Assembly (NCBI GenBank): GCA_021813145.1
Contig: JAKALS010000004.1
Span: forward strand, 8,594 to 72,593
Direction of reading: 5' to 3'
Origin: a bacterium
GTDB lineage: Bacteria; Patescibacteriota; Microgenomatia; Levybacterales; UBA12049
DNA: 64,000 nt
The notes beneath the pieces are model-generated. The model searched no databases, had not been told where the DNA came from, and saw only the letters and a program-made list of their open reading frames with translations. Below are positions 8,205-18,425 of the stretch, in pieces (position 1 is the stretch's first letter; each line of letters starts with the position of its first letter). A program made the position numbers and the translations under genes.

Positions 8205-8678
8205 TCAGGCCGCGGAGGGATAATCTCTTTGAATTCTTCTTAATTGATTGTTAAAATTTTTTGTTATATCGTTTCTGCTTCTACTTCCGTCTAAAAGTAT
8301 TAATCTTTGGCTTGCAAGCCATTCTCTTACCGGGACATGGATTCCGGTTTTTGATAGTCTATTTCCAATTTGTTTTATAAACTCACTTACTCCTGTTTGA
8401 CTTGATTTAACCTGTACCCAAACGATGTCCCCTGTTACTAAATGAACGGTTAAATCTCTTCCTCTTATGTCCTCATCGCTGAATTGTTCGTTTCTTATTA
8501 CTTCTTCAACCGTGTCCTGTCCTTGAATAACTGCGGCGGCTCTCATTTCGGATTTTCTTCCCCTTTTTTGGTCTTCGTGATAGCGTTCGAGTTCTTTTAT
8601 TTGTGAAGAAGAGAGTAAGGAGGTATCCCGGTATCCGGGAAAAAAGTTTCCTGGGGCAATTTCTACTGCAATTGCCAT
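8205..8678 (-). CDS. Hypothetical protein (157 aa), convergent with fusA with zero spacing
   Basis: ORF only; Arg/Gln-rich, no motif recognised; first gene of accessory insertion between fusA and tuf. Confidence 0.45.
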   Translation of the reverse strand: MAIAVEIAPGNFFPGYRDTSLLSSSQIKELERYHEDQKRGRKSEMRAAAVIQGQDTVEEVIRNEQFSDEDIRGRDLTVHLVTGDIVWVQVKSSQTGVSEFIKQIGNRLSKTGIHVPVREWLASQRLILLDGSRSRNDITKNFNNQLRRIQRDYPSAA

Positions 8679-8730
8679 CTAATTCCATTTTTAATTATAG
8701 AAATTACTTTGTCAATACAGCAAAAACGGG

Positions 8731-8739
8731 TGATATAAT
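8731..8739 (+). promoter_or_regulatory. Extended -10 promoter TGATATAAT, 6 nt upstream of the ATG at 8746 (predicts leaderless mRNA)
   Basis: Sequence match to TGnTATAAT; possible -35 TTGTCA at 8709-8714 with 19-nt spacer. Confidence 0.5.
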
Positions 8740-8745
8740 TTAATC

Positions 8746-9345
8746 ATGATGAATGATGCTGTCAGACAAGGGTATAACAAAGTTGCCGATAAATATCTGG
8801 AAGAAAGAGATCAATTTAAAAACGATAAATACCTCAAGAAATTCAATTCTTTACTTTCTCCCGAGTCTTTAATTTTAGATATAGGGTGCGGAGCAGGAAA
8901 ACCGGTGGACAAGTTTTTCATACAGCACGGACATCGAATAATCGGAATAGATATTTCGGAAAAACAAGTGGAACTTGCCAGGCAAAATGTTCCTCAGGGT
9001 TTGTTTAAGGTTGAAGATATGTCAGCCCTTAAACCCGGGGAATATAAAGTAGATGCTGTTATTTCGTTTTATGCAATTTTTCATATCGACAGAGAAACTC
9101 ATTTCGAGTTATTCAAAAAGATTTATTCATTTCTACCGACAGGCGGGTTAATTATGGTTACAATGGGATCAAGTAGCTGGGAAGGAAGCGAAGAAGATTT
9201 TCATGGTGGTAAAATGACTTGGAGCCATTTTGGAAAAGAGAAAAATAGACAAATAGTTGAGGCACAGAGCTTTAAGGTTTTAACAGATGAAATTGATGAA
9301 AACGGAAATGAAAAACATCAAGTAATTATTGCCAAAAAAATATGA
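8746..9345 (+). CDS. Class I SAM-dependent methyltransferase
   Basis: LILDIGCGAGKPVD (motif I GxGxG), acidic residue after beta2 (IGIDISE), 199 aa. Confidence 0.8.
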   Translation: MMNDAVRQGYNKVADKYLEERDQFKNDKYLKKFNSLLSPESLILDIGCGAGKPVDKFFIQHGHRIIGIDISEKQVELARQNVPQGLFKVEDMSALKPGEYKVDAVISFYAIFHIDRETHFELFKKIYSFLPTGGLIMVTMGSSSWEGSEEDFHGGKMTWSHFGKEKNRQIVEAQSFKVLTDEIDENGNEKHQVIIAKKI

Positions 9346-9872
9346 CAAAGACTAAAACAGGAAAAGAAATAACAATAAGATATCCGAGAAAATCCGATGC
9401 AGAAGAAATGTGGAGGTATATTAACGAACTTTCAAAAGAAAAAACTTTTGTAAGGTTTCAGGGCGAAGAAGTTTCTTTTGAAGACGAATCTAAATATCTG
9501 GAAACGATGCTTAAAAGAATAGAAGAAAAAAAGTCGGTTACACTTATGGCATTTTTCGGAGAAGAAATAATAGGAATTACCGGTATTAACATGATGGAAA
9601 AGACGGAAAAACACATTGGGGTTTTCGGAATTTCGGTTGCAAAAGATTATAGAAATGACGGTGTGGGAAAAATTCTTATGGAAAAAGTAATAGAAGAAGC
9701 AAAGAAAAACATAGAGGAATTAAAGATTATAATACTTGAGGTCTATGCCAAAAACTCCATTGCAAAAAGGGTGTACGAAGGGTTCGGCTTTAAGCAGTAT
9801 GGTCTTTTGCCGGAAGGAATAATAAGAGACGAGGGTTTTGATGACGCCCTTTTTATGTACAAAAAAATATGA
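9342..9872 (+). CDS. GNAT family N-acetyltransferase (RimJ/RimL-size)
   Basis: IGVFGISVAKDYRNDGVGKILMEKVIEEAKK acetyl-CoA binding motif (R/Q-x-x-G-x-G/A); start overlaps upstream stop (ATGA). Confidence 0.8.
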   Translation: MTKTKTGKEITIRYPRKSDAEEMWRYINELSKEKTFVRFQGEEVSFEDESKYLETMLKRIEEKKSVTLMAFFGEEIIGITGINMMEKTEKHIGVFGISVAKDYRNDGVGKILMEKVIEEAKKNIEELKIIILEVYAKNSIAKRVYEGFGFKQYGLLPEGIIRDEGFDDALFMYKKI

Positions 9873-10288
9873 ACGATAAAAATGTAAAAGTTGGAGTGGG
9901 AGTGATGGTTTTAAAAGACGGAAAAGTACTTCTTGGAAAAAGAAAAGGTTCTCACGGAGAAGGAGAATACGCATTTCCCGGTGGACATATGGAATTCGGA
10001 GAATCTTTTGAGGATTGCGCAAAAAGGGAAACTTTTGAAGAAACAGGAATAAAAATAAAAAATGTCAGATTTATTCTTTTATCGAATATAAAAATCTGGG
10101 AAGGTAAACATTATATTCACATAGGTTTATTGGCAGATTGGGAAAGCGGGGAACCGGAAGTTAAGGAAATAAATAAAGCGGAGAATTGGGATTGGTACGA
10201 GCTGGATAAATTGCCAAGCCCTTTATTTCTTCCGGTTATCCAGGAAATAGAAGCATATAAGGAAGGTAAAAATTTTATAGACTCATGA
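9869..10288 (+). CDS. NUDIX hydrolase
   Basis: Nudix box GGHMEFGESFEDCAKRETFEETGI; ATGA overlap with GNAT. Confidence 0.85.
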   Translation: MNDKNVKVGVGVMVLKDGKVLLGKRKGSHGEGEYAFPGGHMEFGESFEDCAKRETFEETGIKIKNVRFILLSNIKIWEGKHYIHIGLLADWESGEPEVKEINKAENWDWYELDKLPSPLFLPVIQEIEAYKEGKNFIDS

Positions 10289-10911
10289 GTAATAATTTTT
10301 GCACCATTTATTTGGTAAGACACGGACTTTCGGGAGCAAATGTAGCAAGAACAGTCGGAGGAAATACGGGTCTTGTTGAGAAAGGAAAAGAGCAAGCCAT
10401 GGAGTTGGGAAAGAAATTAAAAGATATAGATTTTGCCGCGGTTTTTTCTTCCGATTTGTTAAGAGCTAGACAGACAGCAGAGCTAATTATTGAAGGAAGA
10501 AATTTGGAAGTTTCAACACACAAGGAATTAAGGGAAAGAAGTTTTGGAAGCATAGATAACAAAAACGATAAAGAATTCATTCACCTTTTTCAAGCTTTAA
10601 AAGATGTATCGGATGATGAGTATTGGAAGTGGAAAATAGTAGATGATATGGAAAGCGCACAGGAAGCTTTCGGAAGATTTTTTAATGCTTTAAAGAAAAT
10701 CTCAAAAAAATATTTAGGTAAAGAAATTTTGATAGTAAGTCATGGAACGGTAATGCGTTCTTTACTGGTTTATCTGGGTTATGGAAGTTTTAAAGAACTT
10801 CCTACAAATTCTCTACAAAACACGGGTTATATAAAATTAAAAAGTGATGGCGAAAATTTCATAATTGAAGATACATGGGGTGTTAATAAAATGAAAGGAT
10901 TATCATTGTAG
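10285..10911 (+). CDS. Histidine phosphatase (phosphoglycerate-mutase-like) family protein
   Basis: IYLVRHGLSGAN (RHG catalytic motif), ...ILIVSHGTVMRSL second His motif; ATGA overlap with upstream. Confidence 0.8.
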   Translation: MSNNFCTIYLVRHGLSGANVARTVGGNTGLVEKGKEQAMELGKKLKDIDFAAVFSSDLLRARQTAELIIEGRNLEVSTHKELRERSFGSIDNKNDKEFIHLFQALKDVSDDEYWKWKIVDDMESAQEAFGRFFNALKKISKKYLGKEILIVSHGTVMRSLLVYLGYGSFKELPTNSLQNTGYIKLKSDGENFIIEDTWGVNKMKGLSL

Positions 10912-10912
10912 G

Positions 10913-11431
10913 ATGGAGCCTAAAGAATTTTATAAATTTTGTCCAAAGTGCGGAGGGGATTTGATTCCCGGAGAAGAACAGCTTCTTATTTGCGGTAAGT
11001 GTTCTTTCCGCTTTTACATTAATCCTTTGCCTTGCAATGCGGCGATCTTGGAAAACGAAAAGGGCGAAATACTTCTTGTAAAAAGAAAATACGACCCGAT
11101 GAAAGGATACTGGGATTGGCCGGGAGGTTTTATAGACCCGGGGGAAAGCCTTGAAGATTCGGTAAAAAGAGAAATAAAAGAAGAGCTAAATGTAGATATT
11201 AAAGTTATGGGGATTATCGGAGTTTATAACGACAGATATCTTTATCAAGATATTTTGCATTACTCTTTATGCGCTGCGGTATCGGCGAAAATAACTGCGG
11301 GACAATTAAAAGCCAACGATGACATAGATGGATTTGAATTTTTTAACAAAGACAAAATACTTAAACTGGATTTTGCATTTCCCTCGATTAAAAAAGGAAT
11401 AGAAGATTACTTTAAAAAGAGAAAAGTTTAG
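10913..11431 (+). CDS. NUDIX hydrolase with N-terminal C4 zinc ribbon (NudC-like architecture)
   Basis: CPKCGG...CGKCSF zinc ribbon then Nudix box GGFIDPGESLEDSVKREIKEELNV. Confidence 0.8.
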   Translation: MEPKEFYKFCPKCGGDLIPGEEQLLICGKCSFRFYINPLPCNAAILENEKGEILLVKRKYDPMKGYWDWPGGFIDPGESLEDSVKREIKEELNVDIKVMGIIGVYNDRYLYQDILHYSLCAAVSAKITAGQLKANDDIDGFEFFNKDKILKLDFAFPSIKKGIEDYFKKRKV

Positions 11432-13665
11432 GCTTTTTCGAAAATTACGTTTGAAGAATCTATGGGTACTGCTTGAGGCTCTTTGATTTTCTCATCCGGT
11501 TTTTTCTCGTGTATTTTTTCTTCCTTTTTGTTTTTTGAATACCTTTGTGCGGAAACTTTAATAACTTTTTCCCTGTTTTGGGTTTTTGATTGTGGCAAAG
11601 GTAGGGTTTGGGCAAGAAAAGGTGCCGTTGTTATAGAATCTATGGAGAGTTTTGTTAATATCTGGTAGTTCCCCAAAGCCAAAAGGTCATCTTCTTTAAA
11701 TCTTTCCCCGAATTCTTTTGCAAGATAGTAAGTGTCCTGCGCTCCGACTACGAAAGACAAAAGGGTTCCGATATTTCCGAATATTGCTGACCTTACATCA
11801 TCGGGTATTTGCGCCATATATTGGTTTGCCAAAATTAAATTAAGCCTGTATTTTCTTGCCTCGGACAATATTTTTATAAACGAACCCGTTGCAAAATTTT
11901 GGAACTCGTCTACATAAAGATAAAAATCTTTTCTTTGGGCTTCGGGTATATCGACTCTTTTCATTGCCGCAAGCTGTATTTTTGTAATTATCATCGCTCC
12001 CAAAAGAGATGAGTTATCTTCTCCGAGTTTTCCCTGCGACAGGTTAAGAATTAGAATTTTTCCTTCGTTCATTATCTTTTCAAGGTCTATTGTTGATTTG
12101 GGGTGACCTATTATATTTCTTACAGTCGGAGAGGAAACAAACTGCCCGACTTTATTAAGGATGGGAGATATGGACTCGCTGTAAAGCTTGGGAGGCATTT
12201 TTTCAAACTCATTTTGCCAGTAGCTTTTAAGGACAGGATCCTTAAGGTCTTTTACTATTTTATCCCTGAAACTTTTATCCGTTAGAAGTGGGTGTACATC
12301 CATAAATGTTGAATCCGGTTTTTCCAAAAGGGTAAGGACTGTATTTCTTAAAATGTATTCGAGTCTGGGTCCCCATGATGTTCCGTAGAGTTTCTTGAAT
12401 ATTGAAACTATTCCCGATGCAATCAACTCTTTTTGCGTTGTCCCTGCTTCCAGAGGATTTAAATGGAAAGAGCTGTCCGGGTCGGAGGGATTAAGGTAAA
12501 TTATGTCGTTAATTCTGTAAGAAGGAATATAGTCTAAGATAAGAGAAGTCAAATCTCCGTGCGGGTCTATAACGGCAAGGCCTTCGTTATTTCGCATATC
12601 GTTTATAAGCATATTTGCGATAAGAGTTGATTTTCCCGCTCCCGTTTTTCCCACAATATACTGATGTTTCCTTCTGTCATTTCTTTTTATACCGAAATTT
12701 GTAATTTTGTTTTTAAATTCCGTGTTTGCAAAAAAATTAATCTCCTTTTTCTCTTCTTGCGAAAGGTTTGCGGCAATAGGTAGATTTTCCGGCGGCTCGG
12801 AAAGGATTGTTTTTGTCCAGGAGAGATTATGGATTTTAGAAAGCTGTTCGGTAGGAAGATGATAAAGGGTTGCTATTTCCGACACATTTAAAATTTCGCT
12901 TGCCGGAATAAATGCTTTTGTCCTTTCCATTATTGCCCTGTGCAGTCTTTTTCTTTGCCAAAGTACGGGTCTTCTTAAAAAGAGGCTGTTTCCGGAAGGG
13001 TTTGAAAAAATAGAGAAGCCGTTGGTTATCTGGAAAAAATCCGAGTTGTTTGCCGTTTTTGCAAGAATTCTTATTCCCGTCTTAAAACCGTTTTTGCCGA
13101 TTTTTTCAGTAATAAATTTTGAATAAGGATTGGCGCCTTCTCCCGGTTCTTTCTGAAGGCTTTTTTGTCCTCTTGACTGCCACGACTGTGAAACGGGAAG
13201 AAGCAGGTATTGGATAACGACGGCGTTATCTTTATCCATTTTGGAAAGAAGGCTTAAAAGCGAAGAGAGGGGGTCTACTTCTTTATAATCTCTATAATTT
13301 TTTAATGGGTAAATAAAAGAAGATCGTAGTTTTAATCTTCCTTCGTGAATAACTCCCTTTCCTTCTAAAAGTGCAGGCAAATAATCTTTTACCTCGTTTA
13401 TAAGTGCTTTGGGATACTGAGCGCTGAGTTGTCCGATAACGAATGTTTGGTAGGCTTTTGGAACGACCAGGAAAAAATGTATCTGCTGGTCAAAAACCGC
13501 TATTTCCAAACTTATGGGAATACCCTTTTTGTAGACATATAAAATGGAACGCCTCAAGTTGGTTAAGCTGGCCAGAAACTGTTCCATGGCCTCGGGCGTT
13601 TCTTCGGATTTTCTCGGGGTTTTTATCTCAAGGACCGTTTTTTTGTCCATATTTAGCTTATGCAA
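11428..13665 (-). CDS. FtsK/HerA/TraG-VirD4-superfamily P-loop ATPase (type IV coupling-protein-like), 745 aa
   Basis: Walker A GKTGAGKST followed by VIDPHGD, Walker B LYVDEFQNF; no obvious N-terminal TM segments; convergent with the 5-gene cassette. Confidence 0.55.
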   Translation of the reverse strand: MHKLNMDKKTVLEIKTPRKSEETPEAMEQFLASLTNLRRSILYVYKKGIPISLEIAVFDQQIHFFLVVPKAYQTFVIGQLSAQYPKALINEVKDYLPALLEGKGVIHEGRLKLRSSFIYPLKNYRDYKEVDPLSSLLSLLSKMDKDNAVVIQYLLLPVSQSWQSRGQKSLQKEPGEGANPYSKFITEKIGKNGFKTGIRILAKTANNSDFFQITNGFSIFSNPSGNSLFLRRPVLWQRKRLHRAIMERTKAFIPASEILNVSEIATLYHLPTEQLSKIHNLSWTKTILSEPPENLPIAANLSQEEKKEINFFANTEFKNKITNFGIKRNDRRKHQYIVGKTGAGKSTLIANMLINDMRNNEGLAVIDPHGDLTSLILDYIPSYRINDIIYLNPSDPDSSFHLNPLEAGTTQKELIASGIVSIFKKLYGTSWGPRLEYILRNTVLTLLEKPDSTFMDVHPLLTDKSFRDKIVKDLKDPVLKSYWQNEFEKMPPKLYSESISPILNKVGQFVSSPTVRNIIGHPKSTIDLEKIMNEGKILILNLSQGKLGEDNSSLLGAMIITKIQLAAMKRVDIPEAQRKDFYLYVDEFQNFATGSFIKILSEARKYRLNLILANQYMAQIPDDVRSAIFGNIGTLLSFVVGAQDTYYLAKEFGERFKEDDLLALGNYQILTKLSIDSITTAPFLAQTLPLPQSKTQNREKVIKVSAQRYSKNKKEEKIHEKKPDEKIKEPQAVPIDSSNVIFEKA

Positions 13666-13776
13666 TTATAGCATTCCATTAAGAATAAGAAAAACTTCTT
13701 ACTTCTTTCTTACCTAACCTTAAAATAATTTTTACTGTCAGGATTTAACATGACTGCAGTATGGTAAAAGTCTACC

Positions 13777-13810
13777 AGAATGAGACCTCCAAAAAGGTCT
13801 CATTCTTTTG
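13777..13810 (+). promoter_or_regulatory. Perfect 11-bp hairpin AGAATGAGACC-(8)-GGTCTCATTCT followed by TTTTG, immediately 5' of yggT-like gene
   Basis: Seen in sequence. Confidence 0.4.
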
Positions 13811-14134
13811 AGAATTATGAAAGTAGCAGGATTTTTTTCAACCATAATAAATATAGTCTTCACCGTAATAGAGCTTTTGATAGGAGCAAGAGTTGTATTG
13901 AGGCTTTTGGGTGCCAATCCTTTTACTCCATTTGTTAACTGGGTCTATACGCTTTCCTCGGCTCTTATTTCTCCGTTTGCCAATATTTTTCCGAGCCCGG
14001 TTCTTAGAGGCGGATTTGTTTTGGATATTCCCGCGATCGTGGGACTTCTAGTTTATGCAATTTTGGCCTACGTAATTTTTCAGCTCATTGAATTTTTGTC
14101 GTACAAAAGGACAACAGTGTATACAACTCCTTAA
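13808..14134 (+). CDS. YggT-family small integral membrane protein
   Basis: 108 aa, two hydrophobic segments, conserved ...SPFANIFP...RGG.VLDIPAIVGLL pattern similar to YggT/Ycf19. Confidence 0.55.
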   Translation: MRIMKVAGFFSTIINIVFTVIELLIGARVVLRLLGANPFTPFVNWVYTLSSALISPFANIFPSPVLRGGFVLDIPAIVGLLVYAILAYVIFQLIEFLSYKRTTVYTTP

Positions 14135-14208: not shown

Positions 14209-15390
14209 ATGGCAGAAACATATCAAAGAACAAAACCACACGTTAATATCGGAACCATCGGTCATGTAGACCATGGTAAGACAACATTAACAGCAGCAAT
14301 TGCTACTGTTTTATCCAAACAGGGTAAAGCAAAAGCGATGAAATATGAAGATATTGATAACGCCCCGGAAGAAAGAGCAAGGGGAGTCACCATCAATATT
14401 ACCCACGTAGAATACGAAACAGAAAAAAGGCATTATGCACATATAGATGCTCCGGGACATGCCGATTATATTAAGAACATGATTACGGGAGCCGCCCAAA
14501 TGGACGGTGCAATCCTCGTAGTCTCGGCCCCCGACGGACCCATGCCTCAAACAAGAGAACACATTTTACTAGCACACCAGGTTCAGGTCCCTTCAATAGT
14601 AGTATTTCTTAATAAATGCGATATGGTTTCGGATCCCGAACTCTTGGACTTGGTTGAAATGGAAGTAAGGGAACTTCTCACAAAATACCAGTATCCGGGA
14701 AATGATGTGCCGATTATAAGAGGCTCGGCTCTTAAAGCTTTAGAAGGCGACGCGGAAGCAGAAAAACAAATACTGGCATTAATGGATGCGGTAGATAATT
14801 ATATTCCTACACCTGTAAGAGATACCGAAAAACCTTTCCTTATGCCTGTTGAAGACGTTTTCTCAATAAAGGGGAGAGGGACAGTCGTAACGGGAAGAAT
14901 AGAAAGAGGCAAGATTAAAATCAACGATCCGGTCGAAATAATAGGAATCAAACCCACAAGACAGTCGGTTGTAACGGGCGTAGAAATGTTTAGAAAACAG
15001 CTCGATGAAGGAATGGCCGGAGATAACGTAGGACTTCTTCTTAGGGGTGTAGAAAAAACCGATGTAGAAAGAGGACAGGTTGTTGCAAAACCCGGATCGA
15101 TAACACCCCACACACAATTTGAAGCAGAAGTTTATATCCTTACAAAAGAAGAAGGAGGAAGACATACTCCCTTCTTTACAGGATACAGGCCGCAATTCTA
15201 TATAAGGACAACGGACGTAACCGGAGAAGCTACGCTTCCTTCCGGAGTAGAAATGGTAATGCCCGGAGATAACGCAAAAATGAATGTAAAACTTATTGTG
15301 CCGGTTGCTATGGAAGAAGGATTAAGGTTTGCAGTAAGAGAAGGCGGAAAGACGGTAGGAGCAGGAGTAATTTCCAAGATTATTGCTTAA
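14209..15390 (+). CDS. tuf: Elongation factor Tu
   Basis: 393 aa; [22 protein letters not shown] motifs. Confidence 0.98.
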
Positions 15391-15413
15391 CGCCTTAATA
15401 AGTGTTAAAATCA

Positions 15414-15437
15414 ATGACCGCAAGGTCATTTTTTTTG
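15414..15437 (+). terminator. Intrinsic terminator ATGACC-gcaa-GGTCAT + T8 after tuf
   Basis: Seen in sequence. Confidence 0.6.
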
Positions 15438-15462: not shown

Positions 15463-15771
15463 ATGCCAAAAGGAAGAATAAGAGTACGTTTAAAAAGTTA
15501 CGACGCAAGGGTAATCGACTCTACGTGTCAGCAAATATTGGATACGGCCATAAGGACCGGAGCCAAGGTTGTGGGACCGATACCTCTTCCTACAAAAAGA
15601 AGTGTATACGCAGTAAATAAATCTCCCTTTATAGATAAAAATGCAAGAGACCATTTTGAAATAAAAGTACACAAAAGATTAATAGATATAGTTTCTCCTA
15701 CGGAAAAAACAATTGACTCATTAACACACCTTGAGCTTCCAGCAGGTGTAAACATCGAAATCAGAATGTAG
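15463..15771 (+). CDS. rpsJ: 30S ribosomal protein S10
   Basis: 102 aa; IRVRLKSYD...LDTAI... typical S10. Confidence 0.95.
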   Translation: MPKGRIRVRLKSYDARVIDSTCQQILDTAIRTGAKVVGPIPLPTKRSVYAVNKSPFIDKNARDHFEIKVHKRLIDIVSPTEKTIDSLTHLELPAGVNIEIRM

Positions 15772-15886
15772 TTCTCCCCGATCTTTCTTAGCTCGCAAGT
15801 GAAATTTTCGTTTCTCGTTTGCTCAAGCAGATGTAAAGTTATCTGATAGAGAAAAAAATTCTGTTTTTATCCTTTAAGCTTTAAGT

Positions 15887-15915
15887 TTGACAAATCATAT
15901 CTTCGGATATATACT
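15887..15915 (+). promoter_or_regulatory. Consensus sigma70 promoter TTGACA-17-TATACT driving orphan gene inside S10 operon
   Basis: Exact TTGACA and TATACT with 17-nt spacer; ATG 9 nt downstream of -10. Confidence 0.55.
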
Positions 15916-15924
15916 GCGGCCACT

Positions 15925-16485
15925 ATGAGCCATGAATCTATATCTTCTGAAAATAAATATTCTTTGGGTGAGATATTAAGAAGTTTAAACGAAAGCCAGA
16001 AGCACTCTTTGGCTATAATTTTGCGCCTTGATGAAAGATTAAGGGATATGTCCCAAAGTGCTGAATTTTCGGACATTAGGACTTTTTCTATAAGACACGA
16101 TGCCTCAAATAATATTAGAGGTTTGGAATGGGATAAAGAATATGGATTTATGGAGCCATTCGGGGAGCCTCTTACAGCAATGGATATACTAAATGATTAT
16201 ATTGCCCGAACCTATACAAAACGTACGCAAGGTCCTGTTTGGTATTTTTCCCATATGTTTCCCGATACAGATTCACCAACGCTAAGAAGATCGGCAAAAG
16301 AAGAGATAAGAGCTGCTGTTTCGGCTCCACTTTATGCTTATGAAACTTCGTTTGACGGTTTATTTCCGAAATTTAGGGCAAATTTTCAAAATGCTGCTGC
16401 TGCTTGCATAAGAGGAGAAGGGAAACTTCGGGCTGACCCGCAAAGCCTTCTTTCAAAAGCAAAAGAAATTGCCAAAATTCTCTAG
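15925..16485 (+). CDS. Hypothetical protein (186 aa) inserted between rpsJ and rplC
   Basis: ORF only; Arg/Ala-rich composition atypical of the Lys/Ile-rich neighbours; own promoter; flanked by ~150-180 nt non-coding DNA each side. Confidence 0.5.
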   Translation: MSHESISSENKYSLGEILRSLNESQKHSLAIILRLDERLRDMSQSAEFSDIRTFSIRHDASNNIRGLEWDKEYGFMEPFGEPLTAMDILNDYIARTYTKRTQGPVWYFSHMFPDTDSPTLRRSAKEEIRAAVSAPLYAYETSFDGLFPKFRANFQNAAAACIRGEGKLRADPQSLLSKAKEIAKIL

Positions 16486-16668
16486 AATTTCCACTTTAAT
16501 TCTACTTGCATTTAGGCTCATTGCATTATATAATTATGCTTACTTAAGCATGGTTATAACGCATCAGGAGGTGATTGTAACTACATAGCAGAGCTTAAAA
16601 CTACGGATTCGTAAGTAAAGTGACTCTATGTGGGTCGCTTTTTTTTGTGTTTTATAACCTGAAAATAA

Positions 16669-17586
16669 ATGAACATACAAGGGCTAATAGGCAAAAAAAG
16701 TTATCAGACACAGGGATTTCTGGAAGACGGGACGAGGGTCCCGTTGTCTGCTGTCATTTTGGCAGAAAACCTGGTTTCTCAGGTAAAAACGCAGGAAAAA
16801 GAAGGATACAATGCGGTGCAAATTGCCTTCGGAGAAAAGAGGAAAACAACAAAAGCATTACAGGGACACGGAAAGAAAGCGGGACTTGAAAAAAATGCCC
16901 GCTTTTTTAGAGAAATAAGAGTAGAAGACACGGCGGGGTTTGAGCCGGGTGCAAAAATAAATGTTAATGATGTGTTTAAACCCGGAGATATCGTTGACGT
17001 AACGGGAGTTTCCAAAGGAAAAGGATGGGCAGGAGTAGTTAAAAAATGGCATTTTAGAGGAGGACCAAGAACTCACGGGCAATCCGACAGAGAAAGGGCC
17101 CCCGGTTCAATCGGACAGACTACAACGCCGGGAAGAGTATACAGGGGAAAGAAAATGGCCGGGAAAATGGGAAGCGAAACTGCCACGGTAAAAAATCTCG
17201 AAATAACAGAAGTAACAAACGACGGAGTACTTTTAATAAAAGGATTGATTCCCGGTTATACAAACGGTTTGGTAATGGTTAAAAAGGTGGGAGAAAACAA
17301 AAAATTTGTCCCTCTCTATAAGGAAATATCAAAAGAGGAAGAGGTATCAGAACCTTCGGAAGGGCAAGAAACACAGGAAGCTTCTCCAGAACCAGTTGTT
17401 GAAGAAGCACCGGTCTTGGAAGAAAATCCCGAACAAAGTTCAGAGCCGGTTGTCAGTTCGCCTGCAAATGAACAGCCTGCTGTCTCTGAGGATAAGGGAA
17501 CAATAGAAGAAGCATCAGAAGCAACAGTGGAAACTGCCGAAAAGAGGAAAGAAGCACAAGAAGAAGAGAAAGGAGAGAATTCTTAA
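16669..17586 (+). CDS. rplC: 50S ribosomal protein L3 with ~90-aa acidic/Pro-rich C-terminal extension
   Basis: 305 aa vs ~210 typical; conserved L3 core through ...LIKGLIPGYTNGLVMVKK, then low-complexity E/P/S/A tail. Confidence 0.93.
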   Translation: MNIQGLIGKKSYQTQGFLEDGTRVPLSAVILAENLVSQVKTQEKEGYNAVQIAFGEKRKTTKALQGHGKKAGLEKNARFFREIRVEDTAGFEPGAKINVNDVFKPGDIVDVTGVSKGKGWAGVVKKWHFRGGPRTHGQSDRERAPGSIGQTTTPGRVYRGKKMAGKMGSETATVKNLEITEVTNDGVLLIKGLIPGYTNGLVMVKKVGENKKFVPLYKEISKEEEVSEPSEGQETQEASPEPVVEEAPVLEENPEQSSEPVVSSPANEQPAVSEDKGTIEEASEATVETAEKRKEAQEEEKGENS

Positions 17587-17654: not shown

Positions 17655-18425
17655 ATGCCAAAAGTTAAAGCCAACGTAAAAGTTAAGGTTGCTCCCAAAG
17701 CCAAAGTCAAGGTTGCAGTTAAGACAGGGTCTAAAACAAGTGCCACCAAAAAGGTGATACAAGAGCTTCCCAAGGAAACGGGATTAAAGCAAAGTGTTTA
17801 TGATACGAAAGGAAAGGTTGTAGAAAGCATAACTTTACCTAAAGAAATTTTCGGAGTAAAAGTAAACGAACATTTAATGGCCCAGGCCGTAAGAGTATTT
17901 CTTAACAACAGAAGAAAAGGTACGGTAAAAACAAAATCAAGAGGAGAGGTAAATAAGACAACAAAGAAAGCATACAGGCAAAAAGGAACAGGAAGAGCAA
18001 GGCACGGAGCAATGTCCGCTCCTATATATGTAGGAGGAGGAGTTGCATTCGGACCAAAACCCAGGGATTATTCATTAAGCCTTCCTAAAAAAATGAAAAG
18101 AGCAGCTCTTTTTTCCGCTCTTTCTGCAAAAGTTGCGGGTGGGGAAATAAAAGTTCTGACCGGACTTGAAAAGATTGAACCTAAAACAAAGCTTATGGCG
18201 GATGTTATAAAAAATCTTTCGCTTGATGGCAAAAATAAAAAGTTGCTTTTGGTAGCAGCCGATCCTAAAGCCGATAATGTAAAAAAAGCAGGAAGAAACA
18301 TAAAGGGATTAAGCATTTTGGATGCTAATCTTTTGAACACTTATGAAGTTTTGGATAGCAAAGGAATAATTTTAATGAAAGGAGCAATAGAAGCTATTCA
18401 AAAAAGCTTTGTAAAAGAAAGTTAA
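17655..18425 (+). CDS. rplD: 50S ribosomal protein L4 with Lys/Val-rich N-terminal extension
   Basis: 256 aa; KANVKVKVAPKAKVKVAVK repeat N-terminus, then L4 core (RQKGTGRARHG). Confidence 0.93.
   Translation: MPKVKANVKVKVAPKAKVKVAVKTGSKTSATKKVIQELPKETGLKQSVYDTKGKVVESITLPKEIFGVKVNEHLMAQAVRVFLNNRRKGTVKTKSRGEVNKTTKKAYRQKGTGRARHGAMSAPIYVGGGVAFGPKPRDYSLSLPKKMKRAALFSALSAKVAGGEIKVLTGLEKIEPKTKLMADVIKNLSLDGKNKKLLLVAADPKADNVKKAGRNIKGLSILDANLLNTYEVLDSKGIILMKGAIEAIQKSFVKES

What the first reader, a model, noticed from the sequence alone, without database searches (positions are those of the whole stretch)
15772..16668. Orphan gene with its own consensus sigma70 promoter inserted inside the S10 operon (rpsJ | rplC)
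rpsJ and rplC are almost universally adjacent. Here ~900 nt are inserted. The insert has a near-perfect TTGACA-17-TATACT promoter (15887-15915) and a 186-aa ORF starting 9 nt after the -10. The protein is Arg/Ala-rich and uses CGN arginine codons, unlike its Lys/Ile-rich, AGA-using neighbours. Downstream there is a 6-bp hairpin (ATGCTT-acuu-AAGCAT), a stray AGGAGGTGA, and an A3GUGAC...GUCGCU3 hairpin plus U8 just before rplC. This looks like a recent, independently transcribed insertion into one of the most conserved operons. Candidate functions include a ribosome-associated factor, a toxin/immunity or anti-phage gene hitch-hiking in a highly expressed locus, or a regulator of the r-protein operon.
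Basis: partly seen in the sequence, partly recalled or inferred. Interest (0 to 1): 0.65.

Follow-up and report, generated by a model that had tools for sequence, protein, structure and literature searches.

The report
Lineage-specific orphan gene at rpsJ–rplC boundary
A real but function-unknown 186-aa gene with its own promoter sits between ribosomal genes rpsJ and rplC of a Levybacteria (candidate-phyla) genome; in this group that junction is an operon boundary where about half of the species carry unrelated extra genes, so it is not a breach of an intact operon.

Summary
The 897-nt gap, the TTGACA-17-TATACT promoter and the 186-aa ORF are real. The claimed Arg/Ala richness and CGN codon bias are not: 11 of 15 Arg codons are AGA/AGG, and GC and codon usage match the neighbours.

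The ORF encodes a genuine protein. It has three homologues at 29–36% identity, and two AlphaFold models have pLDDT 84–87. It matches no Pfam, NCBIfam, PADLOC, PHROG, PDB, phage or plasmid entry.

All four family members lie between rpsJ and rplC in the window's closest relatives. Each has the same promoter 9–11 nt before the ATG, which implies a leaderless mRNA. A close relative of one carrier has an empty site.

The last ~170 nt of the "insert" (AGGAGGTGA, hairpin, U8) are not inserted. They are a promoter plus structured leader/attenuator found upstream of rplC in essentially all Levybacteria examined, and they match no Rfam family.

In 77 species representatives the gap is 92–246 nt in 41 and 299–3442 nt in 36. 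The larger gaps hold unrelated cargo such as deformylase, NUDIX, His-phosphatase, Fic and many orphans.

Verdict: a clade-restricted, fast-diverging accessory gene in an insertion hot spot at a transcription-unit boundary. It is neither recent nor inside an operon. Its biochemical function remains unknown.

The parts
15413..15437 (+). Terminator-like hairpin + T8 between tuf (14209-15390) and rpsJ
   Evidence: Pattern scan; sequence. Not tested further.
15463..15771 (+). rpsJ (ribosomal protein S10), upstream flank of the slot
   Evidence: ORF list. Pfam Ribosomal_S10 on the identical gene in L001. 70-97% identical to the 80 Levybacteria-group relatives fetched, and 98-100% to the family-carrying relatives L087 and L088.
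15772..15886 (+). Spacer with no recognised feature. It is about 95 nt longer than the equivalent spacer in the three homologous loci.
   Evidence: No nucleotide similarity to any relative. Folding is no better than shuffles, z = -0.04. In L087, L088 and L089 the promoter starts 11-20 nt after the rpsJ stop.
15887..15915 (+). Sigma-70-type promoter TTGACA-17-TATACT of the orphan gene
   Evidence: 11/12 match. One of four such sites in 64 kb against 1.15 expected. TTGAMA-17-TATACT/TATAAT is conserved 9-11 nt before the ATG in all four family loci. The TSS is inferred, not measured.
15925..16485 (+). ORF186: soluble 186-aa protein of a four-member orphan family, probably translated from a leaderless mRNA
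   Evidence: Homologues P0002, P0003 and P0005 at E = 4e-23, 1e-18 and 6e-8 over full length. 27 invariant columns. AF2 pLDDT 87.3 / pTM 0.85, and 83.6 / 0.84 for a second member with the same topology. No family, fold, phage or plasmid match.
16506..16534 (+). Resident promoter-like element of the rplC operon, TTGCAT-17-TATAAT
   Evidence: Read from the sequence. The same CTTGCATTT...TATATAAT element precedes the leader in relatives with and without cargo.
16541..16646 (+). Conserved rplC leader/attenuator. It contains the SD-like AGGAGGUGA (16566-16574), the CUACAUAG box (16581-16588), a variable hairpin (~16600-16616) and a terminator hairpin + U8 (16617-16646).
   Evidence: Nucleotide homology to the leaders of L009, L014, L020, L023, L024, L033 and others. 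Terminator + T-run found in 82 of 84 loci, 0-50 nt before rplC in most and up to 140 nt in a few. Terminator stem 99% paired; box/terminator-loop pairing 89-90% paired, with 3 pairs changed on both sides and 0/500 shuffles reaching the covariation score. MFE -34.6 kcal/mol, z = -3.4. No Rfam match.
16669..17586 (+). rplC (L3, with an acidic C-terminal extension of ~95 aa), downstream flank of the slot
   Evidence: ORF list. Pfam Ribosomal_L3 on the identical gene in L001.

Best explanation
THE ORGANISM AND THE JUNCTION
The window comes from a Levybacteria (Patescibacteria/CPR) genome. In this group tuf-rpsJ and the large rplC-led ribosomal-protein operon appear to be separate transcription units. 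rplC has its own promoter-like element and a structured leader ending in an intrinsic-terminator-like hairpin, which is probably an autoregulatory attenuator.

The short DNA between the rpsJ stop and the rplC promoter tolerates insertions and behaves as an accessory-gene hot spot. About half of the species carry one to several unrelated genes there.

THE GENE
ORF186 occupies this slot in one genus-level clade. It was probably acquired once in that clade's ancestor and inherited vertically at the same site with its own strong sigma-70 promoter. It has diverged much faster than its flanks, and it has been lost, or never gained, in at least one close relative.

HOW IT IS EXPRESSED (INFERRED)
- Transcription starts about 3 nt before the ATG, giving a leaderless mRNA.
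- There is no terminator of its own, so transcripts run into the rplC promoter/leader.
- They stop at, or read through, the leader's attenuator. The gene therefore adds a second upstream promoter feeding that attenuator.

THE PROTEIN
It is a soluble, near-neutral alpha/beta protein with a confidently predicted fold that has no detectable relatives. Its biochemical role is unknown. The rapid divergence and presence/absence pattern fit a dispensable, lineage-specific accessory function, possibly conflict- or environment-related, better than a core ribosomal role.

SHOWN VERSUS INFERRED
Shown: anatomy, homologues, synteny, hot-spot statistics, leader conservation. Inferred: TSS positions, read-through, ancestral gain and later loss, functional class.
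For: ORGANISM AND RELATIVES.

GAP STATISTICS
- In 77 GTDB representatives, 41 gaps are 92-246 nt and 36 are 299-3442 nt. 30 contain an ORF of >=100 aa, and the longest ORF is co-oriented in 23 of those 30.
- In an independent JGI set, 19 of 22 sites are occupied.

CARGO HETEROGENEITY
- Pfam families found: His_Phos_1, NUDIX, Pep_deformylase, Asp_Glu_race, FtsJ, Fic, deaminase, NTP_transf_6, AAA_14/DUF4143, EamA, PMT_2, GH26/CBM96, CAP, Glyoxalase. A substantial share of the cargo proteins have no Pfam match.
- Ogt-like proteins (judged by eye from the PCHRVV motif) and ~194-aa ORFs resembling the deformylases of L020/L033 recur in metagenomes.
- hhalign shows no relation of ORF186 to any other cargo.

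THE FAMILY
- An exhaustive phmmer of 1.84 billion representatives gives only P0002, P0003 and P0005 as credible homologues.
- All lie between rpsJ and rplC with a conserved promoter 9-11 nt before the ATG.
- The carriers are the window's nearest relatives: L3 72-79%, L4 74-80%, S10 98-100%, EF-Tu 89-95%. The best GTDB representative has L3 at only 64%.
- ORF identities within the family are 29-42%.
- L087 versus L089: leader 99% nt, rplC 5' end 91% nt, ORF protein 42%.
- The empty-site locus L116 is the closest relative of carrier L088: rplC 82% nt, leader 89%.

NATIVE COMPOSITION AND NO MOBILE-ELEMENT SIGNS
- Composition.
- No flanking repeats or mobile-element genes.
- No phage or plasmid relatives.

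GENUINE PROTEIN.

LEADER CONSERVED INDEPENDENTLY OF CARGO.
Against: - There are no expression data. Both promoters, the leaderless start and read-through into the leader are sequence inferences.
- The family has only four sequence clusters, so the gain/loss history rests on few taxa and partly on short contigs (L089 and L090 are <1 kb).
- The window's leader resembles the L119-type leader (78%) more than that of its closest r-protein relative L087 (64%). Recombination at the locus therefore blurs a purely vertical history.
- Fast divergence could reflect relaxed constraint rather than conflict.
- Some cargo in the slot is translation-related (deformylase, FtsJ-like methyltransferase, deaminase). 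A functional link of slot genes to translation is therefore not excluded.
- The hot-spot mechanism is unknown, since no mobile-element signature was found.
Confidence: 0.72

Rival explanations
1. Recent horizontal insertion of a foreign, self-contained cassette (promoter + gene + terminator) into the S10 operon.
For: - The gene is absent from all 77 GTDB representatives and 22 JGI loci outside the small clade.
- It has its own strong promoter.
- A close relative of one carrier has an empty site.
- Identity along L087/L089 is mosaic.
Against: - Homologues of 29-36% identity sit at the same site, with the same promoter, in the nearest relatives.
- GC, GC3 and codon usage are native.
- There are no repeats, integrase or transposase.
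- There are no phage, plasmid or viral relatives.
- The 'terminator' belongs to the resident rplC leader.
- The site is an operon boundary in the whole group.
Confidence: 0.1
2. ORF186 is a translation- or ribosome-linked factor, or a regulator of the rplC operon, and its position next to the leader is functional.
For: - The position immediately upstream of the rplC promoter/leader is invariant in all four members.
- Its transcripts must enter the leader, because no terminator lies between 16485 and 16506.
- Other slot cargo includes translation-related enzymes.
Against: - It is restricted to one small clade, while the leader is conserved in all relatives without it.
- Its closest relatives include an empty site.
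- pI is 6.2-6.5 and it has no RNA-binding or ribosomal family match.
- It diverges far faster than r-proteins.
- Most slot cargo is unrelated to translation.
Confidence: 0.1
3. ORF186 is a conflict gene: a stand-alone anti-phage, immunity or host-interaction protein kept in a highly transcribed neighbourhood and evolving under diversifying selection.
For: - Divergence is extreme between near-identical flanks: 42% protein identity against 99% leader identity.
- Close relatives show presence/absence polymorphism.
- Different alleles co-occur in one sample, SRR13300764, and in assemblies with neighbouring ENA accession numbers.
- It is an orphan family with an unmatched fold.
Against: - It has no PADLOC or PHROG match.
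- No partner gene sits in the slot.
- No selection test was possible. The six copies of the window allele are identical at the nucleotide level, and the homologues are too diverged for dN/dS.
- Relaxed constraint explains the same pattern.
Confidence: 0.2
4. The ORF is a chance open reading frame in a long non-coding spacer.
For: It has no family annotation anywhere.
Against: - Full-length homologues with 27 invariant residues exist at E down to 4e-23.
- Length is conserved at 180-193 aa.
- Two independent AF2 models have pLDDT 84-87 and pTM 0.84-0.85 with the same topology.
- The promoter and start-codon spacing are conserved.
Confidence: 0.02

Closest known systems
Accessory-gene integration hot spots flanked by conserved core genes (general concept from comparative bacterial genomics; my own knowledge, not checked against a paper here)
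   Same: - Two highly conserved core genes (rpsJ, rplC) bracket a segment whose content differs among related species, from empty to 5 kb.
- Cargo is functionally heterogeneous and includes many orphans.
- Close relatives show presence/absence differences.
   Different: - The hot spot lies inside the str-S10-spc ribosomal super-cluster.
- No integrase, transposase, tRNA or repeat signature was found.
- Cargo is mostly single small genes, co-oriented with the flanks in 23 of 30 loci.
E. coli S10-operon leader: L4-mediated transcription attenuation and translational repression (described in PMC3616713)
   Same: - It is a structured 5' leader of the operon encoding L3-L4-L23-L2 and following genes.
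- It ends in a terminator hairpin.
- A further hairpin lies directly upstream of the terminator.
   Different: - Here the leader lies upstream of rplC, not rpsJ.
- It shows no sequence or structure match to any Rfam model.
- It contains a conserved GGAGGUGAU element and a box complementary to the terminator loop.
- The effector is unknown.
- PMC3616713 reports the E. coli RNA as restricted to Gammaproteobacteria.
Candidate L4 r-leader upstream of rplC-rplD-rplW-rplB in Archaeoglobi (PMC7247131, Table 1)
   Same: It is a candidate regulatory RNA directly upstream of an operon that begins with rplC rather than rpsJ.
   Different: It is from a different domain of life. That study lists no CPR or Levybacteria motif, and no Rfam model hits the window leader.
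Archaeal gene order, in which S10 follows EF-1alpha in the str cluster and L3 starts a separate operon (my own knowledge)
   Same: tuf-rpsJ form one unit and rplC starts the next, with regulatory DNA in between.
   Different: These are bacteria. The separation is 92-250 nt in empty sites and carries a bacterial-type promoter and intrinsic terminator.

Membership tests
Contiguous bacterial S10 operon (rpsJ-rplC co-transcribed, as in E. coli) | rpsJ immediately followed by rplC, with no promoter or terminator between them | tested here: not met
   All 84 loci of the group have >=92 nt between the genes. 82 of 84 have a terminator-like hairpin + T-run before rplC, preceded by a conserved TTGCAT...TATAAT element.
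Genuine protein-coding gene | Homologues conserved over full length, with a foldable product | tested here: met
   P0002, P0003 and P0005 at E = 4e-23 to 6e-8. 27 invariant columns. AF2 pLDDT 87.3 and 83.6 with the same topology.
Any curated protein family (Pfam, NCBIfam) | Profile match at or near the curated threshold | tested here: not met
   No Pfam hit below E = 0.13 for any of the four members, and no NCBIfam hit.
Known anti-phage defence or toxin-antitoxin systems | Match to a defence-system model, or an adjacent partner gene | tested here: not met
   PADLOC gives 0 families for 4 members. ORF186 is the only credible gene in the gap.
Phage- or plasmid-derived gene / mobile element cargo | Homologues on phages or plasmids; integrase or transposase; flanking repeats; deviant composition | tested here: not met
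   - PHROG best E = 0.089.
- IMG/VR none.
- BFVD fold search none.
- INPHARED and PLSDB tblastn none.
- No significant flanking repeats.
- Native codon usage.
Known protein fold (PDB) | Foldseek match with E<=0.001 or TM>=0.5 | tested here: not met
Core-gene-flanked insertion hot spot | Variable, unrelated gene content at one syntenic site across related genomes | tested here: met
   36 of 77 GTDB representatives and 19 of 22 JGI loci are occupied. More than 15 Pfam families plus orphans are present, and empty sites occur in close relatives.
Leaderless mRNA | Transcription start at or within a few nt of the start codon, with no Shine-Dalgarno | not testable with these tools
   The -10 ends 9-11 nt before the ATG in all four loci and no SD is present. 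The TSS is not measured.
E. coli-type L4-responsive S10 leader (or any Rfam r-protein leader) | Match to the curated covariance model | tested here: not met
   No Rfam family at gathering score in the window except one tRNA. In an E<=10 scan of 15772-16700 the best hits are E = 1-10 and far below their thresholds.
E. coli-type L4-responsive S10 leader (or any Rfam r-protein leader) | Terminator hairpin preceded by a required upstream hairpin in the 5' leader of the L3-L4 operon | tested here: met
   Terminator stem is 99% paired across 29 leaders. A variable-sequence hairpin lies directly upstream in most of the 29 (clear in about two-thirds).
E. coli-type L4-responsive S10 leader (or any Rfam r-protein leader) | Termination or translation responds to ribosomal protein L4 | not testable with these tools
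   Needs in vitro transcription or reporter assays.

The most novel reading that the evidence does not exclude
Two linked novelties are not excluded.

(1) ORF186 may found a new-fold family of fast-evolving conflict or host-interaction proteins that Levybacteria keep at a dedicated, highly transcribed 'cassette slot' between rpsJ and rplC. Alleles would be exchanged by recombination through the ultra-conserved flanks.

(2) The adjacent, previously undescribed rplC leader may be a ribosome-sensing attenuator. Its conserved GGAGGUGAU is a perfect complement of the canonical bacterial 16S 3' end (the 16S rRNA of this genome was not examined). The overlapping mini-ORF/CUACAUAG box pairs with the terminator loop. 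Free 30S subunits or translating ribosomes, rather than a single r-protein, would then set transcription of the main r-protein operon.
Probability: 0.12. Interest if true: 0.75.

Novelty: new variant of a known kind. Interest (0 to 1): 0.45.

Why it matters
- The rpsJ-to-rpsQ block is treated as a near-invariant operon and is the backbone of concatenated-marker phylogenies of uncultivated bacteria. In one CPR phylum the rpsJ|rplC junction is instead an operon boundary that collects lineage-specific genes. That changes how such loci should be annotated and binned.
- It also points to a convenient 'landing pad' where new genes of these reduced genomes accumulate.
- The orphan family is a well-defined target for structural and functional work. 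It is small and soluble, its fold is predicted with confidence, and it has no known relatives.
- The conserved rplC leader is a candidate new ribosomal-protein regulatory RNA in a group where none has been described.

Tried and rejected
PROTEIN SEARCHES THAT FOUND NOTHING
- Word-indexed search of 5.8 billion proteins with the protein alone found only itself.
- The same search with the family profile recovered only the already known members P0001, P0003 and P0005, nothing new.
- P0004, P0006 and P0007 from the exhaustive search are tandem-repeat proteins with many short stretches, and were rejected as false hits.
With 3 sequences it found nothing.
- IMG/VR found nothing.
- PADLOC, PHROGs, NCBIfam, Pfam and PDB-sequence searches were all negative.
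- Foldseek against PDB (two models) and BFVD was negative.
- hhalign of the family against every other slot protein gave probabilities <1%, which rejects the idea that the ~180-aa orphans of the slot are one hyper-divergent family.
- The window contains no paralogue.
- There are no phage or plasmid relatives.

DNA AND RNA CHECKS THAT LED NOWHERE
- There are no meaningful flanking direct or inverted repeats.
- Population variation could not be used, because the six metagenomic copies are nucleotide-identical.
- Rfam scans of the leader were negative.
- The lower antiterminator helix (GGAGG x U-tract) is 80% paired but shows no covariation, so I do not claim it.
- I could not support a 5' hairpin involving GGAGGUGAU by eye and dropped it.
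- The literature searches found nothing on Levybacteria r-protein operon structure.
Full report
1. WHAT IS IN THE SEQUENCE

The window carries rpoC, rpsL, rpsG and fusA, then about 6 kb of other genes, then tuf (14209-15390), rpsJ (15463-15771), a gap of 897 nt, and rplC (16669-17586) followed by rplD, rplW, rplB and so on.

Inside the gap:
- TTGACA-17-TATACT lies at 15887-15915, matching 11 of 12 consensus positions.
- A 186-aa ORF lies at 15925-16485.
- The hairpin 16536-16551, AGGAGGTGA (16566-16574) and a terminator-like hairpin 16617-16641 followed by T8 are all present.

The promoter is one of only four sites scoring >=11/12 in 64 kb on both strands, against 1.15 +/- 1.05 expected. All four lie just upstream of genes, one of them in front of rpsL.

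- R is 8.1% and A is 9.7%, both ordinary.
- 11 of 15 Arg codons are AGA/AGG.
- GC is 0.39 and GC3 is 0.27, like the neighbours.
- The GC profile has no step.
- Codon-usage distance is inside the range of similar-length genes of the window.

2. THE ORF IS A REAL GENE OF A TINY FAMILY

- There is no Pfam, NCBIfam, PADLOC or PHROG match and no PDB sequence match.
- The word-indexed search of 5.8 billion proteins found only the protein itself.
- An exhaustive phmmer of 1.84 billion cluster representatives found three credible full-length homologues: P0002 (191 aa, 36%, E = 4e-23), P0003 (193 aa, 33%, E = 1e-18) and P0005 (180 aa, 30%, E = 6e-8). It also returned three tandem-repeat proteins, which I reject as artefacts.
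- The four sequences align end to end with 27 invariant columns. Pairwise identities are 29-42%.
- AlphaFold2 with only these four sequences gives pLDDT 87.3 / pTM 0.85 for ORF186. For P0003 it gives 83.6 / 0.84, with all five models above 80. Both show the same order of elements: short helix, long helix, three-stranded sheet, then six helices.
- The proteins are hydrophilic, have pI 6.2-6.5 and lack hydrophobic segments.
- There are no relatives on phages, plasmids or viral contigs, and no paralogue in the window.

3. WHERE THE FAMILY LIVES

The window allele occurs in at least six metagenome samples. It is identical at the nucleotide level and always lies between rpsJ and rplC.

P0003 (L087), P0005 (L088) and P0002 (L089/L090) are also encoded between rpsJ and rplC. 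Each is preceded by CCTATAGTTGA(A/C)AA-17-TATACT/TATAAT ending 9-11 nt before the ATG, with no Shine-Dalgarno. The conserved promoter-to-start spacing implies a leaderless or nearly leaderless mRNA.

The carriers are the window's nearest relatives in all data fetched:

| Locus | S10 | EF-Tu | L3 | L4 |
|---|---|---|---|---|
| L087 | 100% | 95% | 79% | 80% |
| L088 | 98% | 89% | 72% | 74% |

The best of 80 GTDB species representatives reaches only 64% in L3. The gene is therefore restricted to one genus-level clade and has diverged far faster than its flanks.

The extreme case is L087 versus L089. The leader is 99% identical, the rplC 5' end is 91% and the ORF proteins are 42%.

A metagenomic locus with an empty site (L116, 193 nt) is the closest relative of carrier L088, with rplC at 82% nt and the leader at 89%. 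That is closer than any other carrier.

The simplest history is one gain in the clade's ancestor, vertical descent with rapid divergence, and at least one loss. The window's leader resembles the L119-type leader (78%) more than L087's (64%), so recombination at the locus also occurs.

4. THE JUNCTION IS AN OPERON BOUNDARY AND A HOT SPOT

A scan of one genome per species with S10 returned 80 Levybacteria-group loci. In the 77 that contain both genes:
- the gap is never below 92 nt;
- 41 gaps are 92-246 nt (median 153);
- 36 gaps are 299-3442 nt;
- 30 gaps hold at least one ORF of >=100 aa, and the longest ORF is co-oriented in 23 of those 30.

The cargo is unrelated from lineage to lineage. Pfam finds His_Phos_1, NUDIX, Pep_deformylase, Asp_Glu_race, FtsJ, Fic, cytidine-deaminase-like, NTP_transf_6, AAA_14+DUF4143, EamA, PMT_2, GH26+CBM96, CAP, Glyoxalase and DUF5680. 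A substantial share of the cargo proteins have no Pfam family. No integrase or transposase is present.

An independent set from JGI metagenomes, fetched with a leader DNA pattern, gave 22 loci with both genes. Of these, 19 are occupied (478-5129 nt) and 3 are empty. Ogt-like ~102-aa proteins and ~194-aa ORFs resembling the deformylases of L020/L033 recur there. None of these loci has an ORF186 homologue.

Profile comparison shows that ORF186 is unrelated to any other cargo. No repeats flank the window's insert.

5. THE 3' PART OF THE 'INSERT' IS THE RESIDENT rplC LEADER

Only 16486-16668 has nucleotide homology in relatives, and it matches loci with different cargo or with none.

Empty sites consist essentially of this unit:
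- CTTGCATTT-N-TATATAAT;
- a ~100-nt leader containing (A/U)GGAGGUGAU and a CUACAUAG box (a second leader type has AGCCUAA);
- a variable hairpin;
- a GC-rich hairpin plus U-run, 0-50 nt before the rplC ATG in most loci.

A terminator-like hairpin + T-run was found in 82 of 84 loci.

In a MAFFT alignment of 29 type-A leaders:
- the terminator stem is 99% paired;
- the box pairs with the terminator loop and 3' shoulder in 89-90% of cells, with three pairs changed on both sides;
- 0 of 500 shuffles reach the covariation score;
- slid controls give 31-62% pairing.

The segment just before the terminator folds into a hairpin of differing sequence in most of the 29 leaders, clearly in about two-thirds.

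The window's leader folds at -34.6 kcal/mol (z = -3.4). Its minimum-energy structure is an antiterminator-like helix in which CUACAUAG pairs with CUAUGUGG and AGGAGGUGAU pairs with GUCGCUUUUU. The lower helix shows no covariation, so I do not claim it.

No Rfam family matches. The published r-leader surveys I read list an rplC-proximal L4 candidate only in Archaeoglobi (PMC7247131). They describe the E. coli L4-responsive S10 leader as restricted to Gammaproteobacteria (PMC3616713).

The 16536-16551 hairpin is window-specific and overlaps the predicted start of the leader.

6. HOW IT MOST LIKELY WORKS

Shown: the anatomy above.

Inferred:
- tuf-rpsJ and rplC-and-following genes are separate transcription units in this phylum.
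- DNA between the rpsJ stop and the rplC -35 is free of constraint, so genes can be inserted without disturbing either unit.
- ORF186 is transcribed from its own strong promoter as a leaderless mRNA.
- No terminator lies between its stop (16485) and the rplC -35 (16506). Its transcripts therefore enter the leader and terminate at, or read through, the attenuator.

The biochemical role of the protein is unknown. Soluble, near-neutral, clade-restricted, dispensable in a close relative and fast-diverging together argue for an accessory role, possibly conflict- or niche-related, and against a core ribosomal role.

7. COMPARISON WITH KNOWN SYSTEMS AND NOVELTY

The locus behaves like a core-gene-flanked integration hot spot. 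It is unusual in sitting inside the ribosomal super-cluster and in lacking any mobile-element signature.

The leader works like, but is not a member of, the E. coli S10 leader class. It shares a terminator plus an upstream hairpin. It differs in position and sequence, has no Rfam match, and its effector is untested.

The protein belongs to no known family. Overall this is a new variant of known kinds of things, namely a hot-spot accessory gene and an r-protein leader. It is not a breach of an intact, universally conserved operon.

Interest is moderate. The headline claim is deflated, but three concrete and testable items emerge: the slot, the orphan fold and the undescribed leader.

Noticed in passing
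window 16506-16646; same position in L007-L086 and about 50 of L091-L193: A conserved promoter + structured leader + terminator lies directly upstream of rplC in essentially all Levybacteria-group loci, in two sequence types. Type A has GGAGGUGAU, a CUACAUAG box and a GCGAC/GUCGC terminator. Type B has an AUGCCCAAA motif, an AGCCUAA box and a GGUAGCCUA..GGCUAUC terminator. It matches no Rfam family and is a candidate new ribosomal-protein leader/attenuator.
   Followed up: partly
window 16566-16588 and the aligned leaders (A3 columns 46-68): GGAGGUGAU is a perfect complement of the canonical bacterial 16S rRNA 3' end (the 16S rRNA of this genome was not examined). In many relatives it is followed at SD-like spacing by a three-codon mini-ORF (UUG/GUG-[AG]CU-ACA-stop), or lies within a seven-codon frame (AUG-GAG-GUG-...-stop). 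Both overlap the box that pairs with the terminator loop. A start codon is not present in every sequence; the window has GUA.
   Followed up: partly
window 8205-14134: The fusA|tuf junction also holds about 6 kb of non-ribosomal genes: methyltransferase, GNAT, NUDIX, His_Phos_1, NUDIX, a 745-aa TraG/VirD4-like coupling-protein homologue on the minus strand, and YGGT. The His_Phos_1 protein is 40-43% identical to those occupying the rpsJ|rplC slot in L028, L029 and L047, so the same gene families populate different junctions of the cluster.
   Followed up: partly
window 15413-15437: A terminator-like hairpin + T8 lies between tuf and rpsJ, only 25 nt before the rpsJ start. Either rpsJ depends on read-through or this is another attenuator.
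   Followed up: no
window 17300-17586 and 17655-17780: L3 carries an acidic, low-complexity C-terminal extension of ~95 aa (305 aa in total). L4 begins with a Lys/Val-rich N-terminal extension.
   Followed up: no
L004 and L089 (both from SRR13300764); L001, L087, L090 (ERZ27237541, ERZ27237183, ERZ27237563): Divergent alleles of the orphan family (P0001 and P0002 at 34% identity, and P0003) occur in the same sample, or in assemblies with neighbouring ENA accession numbers. Sister lineages with different alleles therefore probably co-exist.
   Followed up: no
L104, L113, L122, L123, L130, L158, L183, L190, L191 (slot, last gene before the leader); L020, L033, L096, L127, L135, L157, L190: Two cargo types recur in the slot in other Levybacteria. 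One is a ~102-aa Ogt/MGMT-like protein with a PCHRVV motif, placed directly before the rplC leader. The other is a ~194-aa ORF: those of L020 and L033 cluster together and one matched Pfam Pep_deformylase, while the metagenomic ones were assigned by sequence resemblance only. Both would be co-transcribed towards the r-protein operon.
   Followed up: partly
L001 positions 3-668: The partial EF-Tu gene at the end of this 122-kb ENA contig is only 94% identical to the window's, while rpsJ, ORF186, rplC, rplD and rplW are 100% identical. This may reflect strain mosaicism or a chimeric contig end.
   Followed up: no
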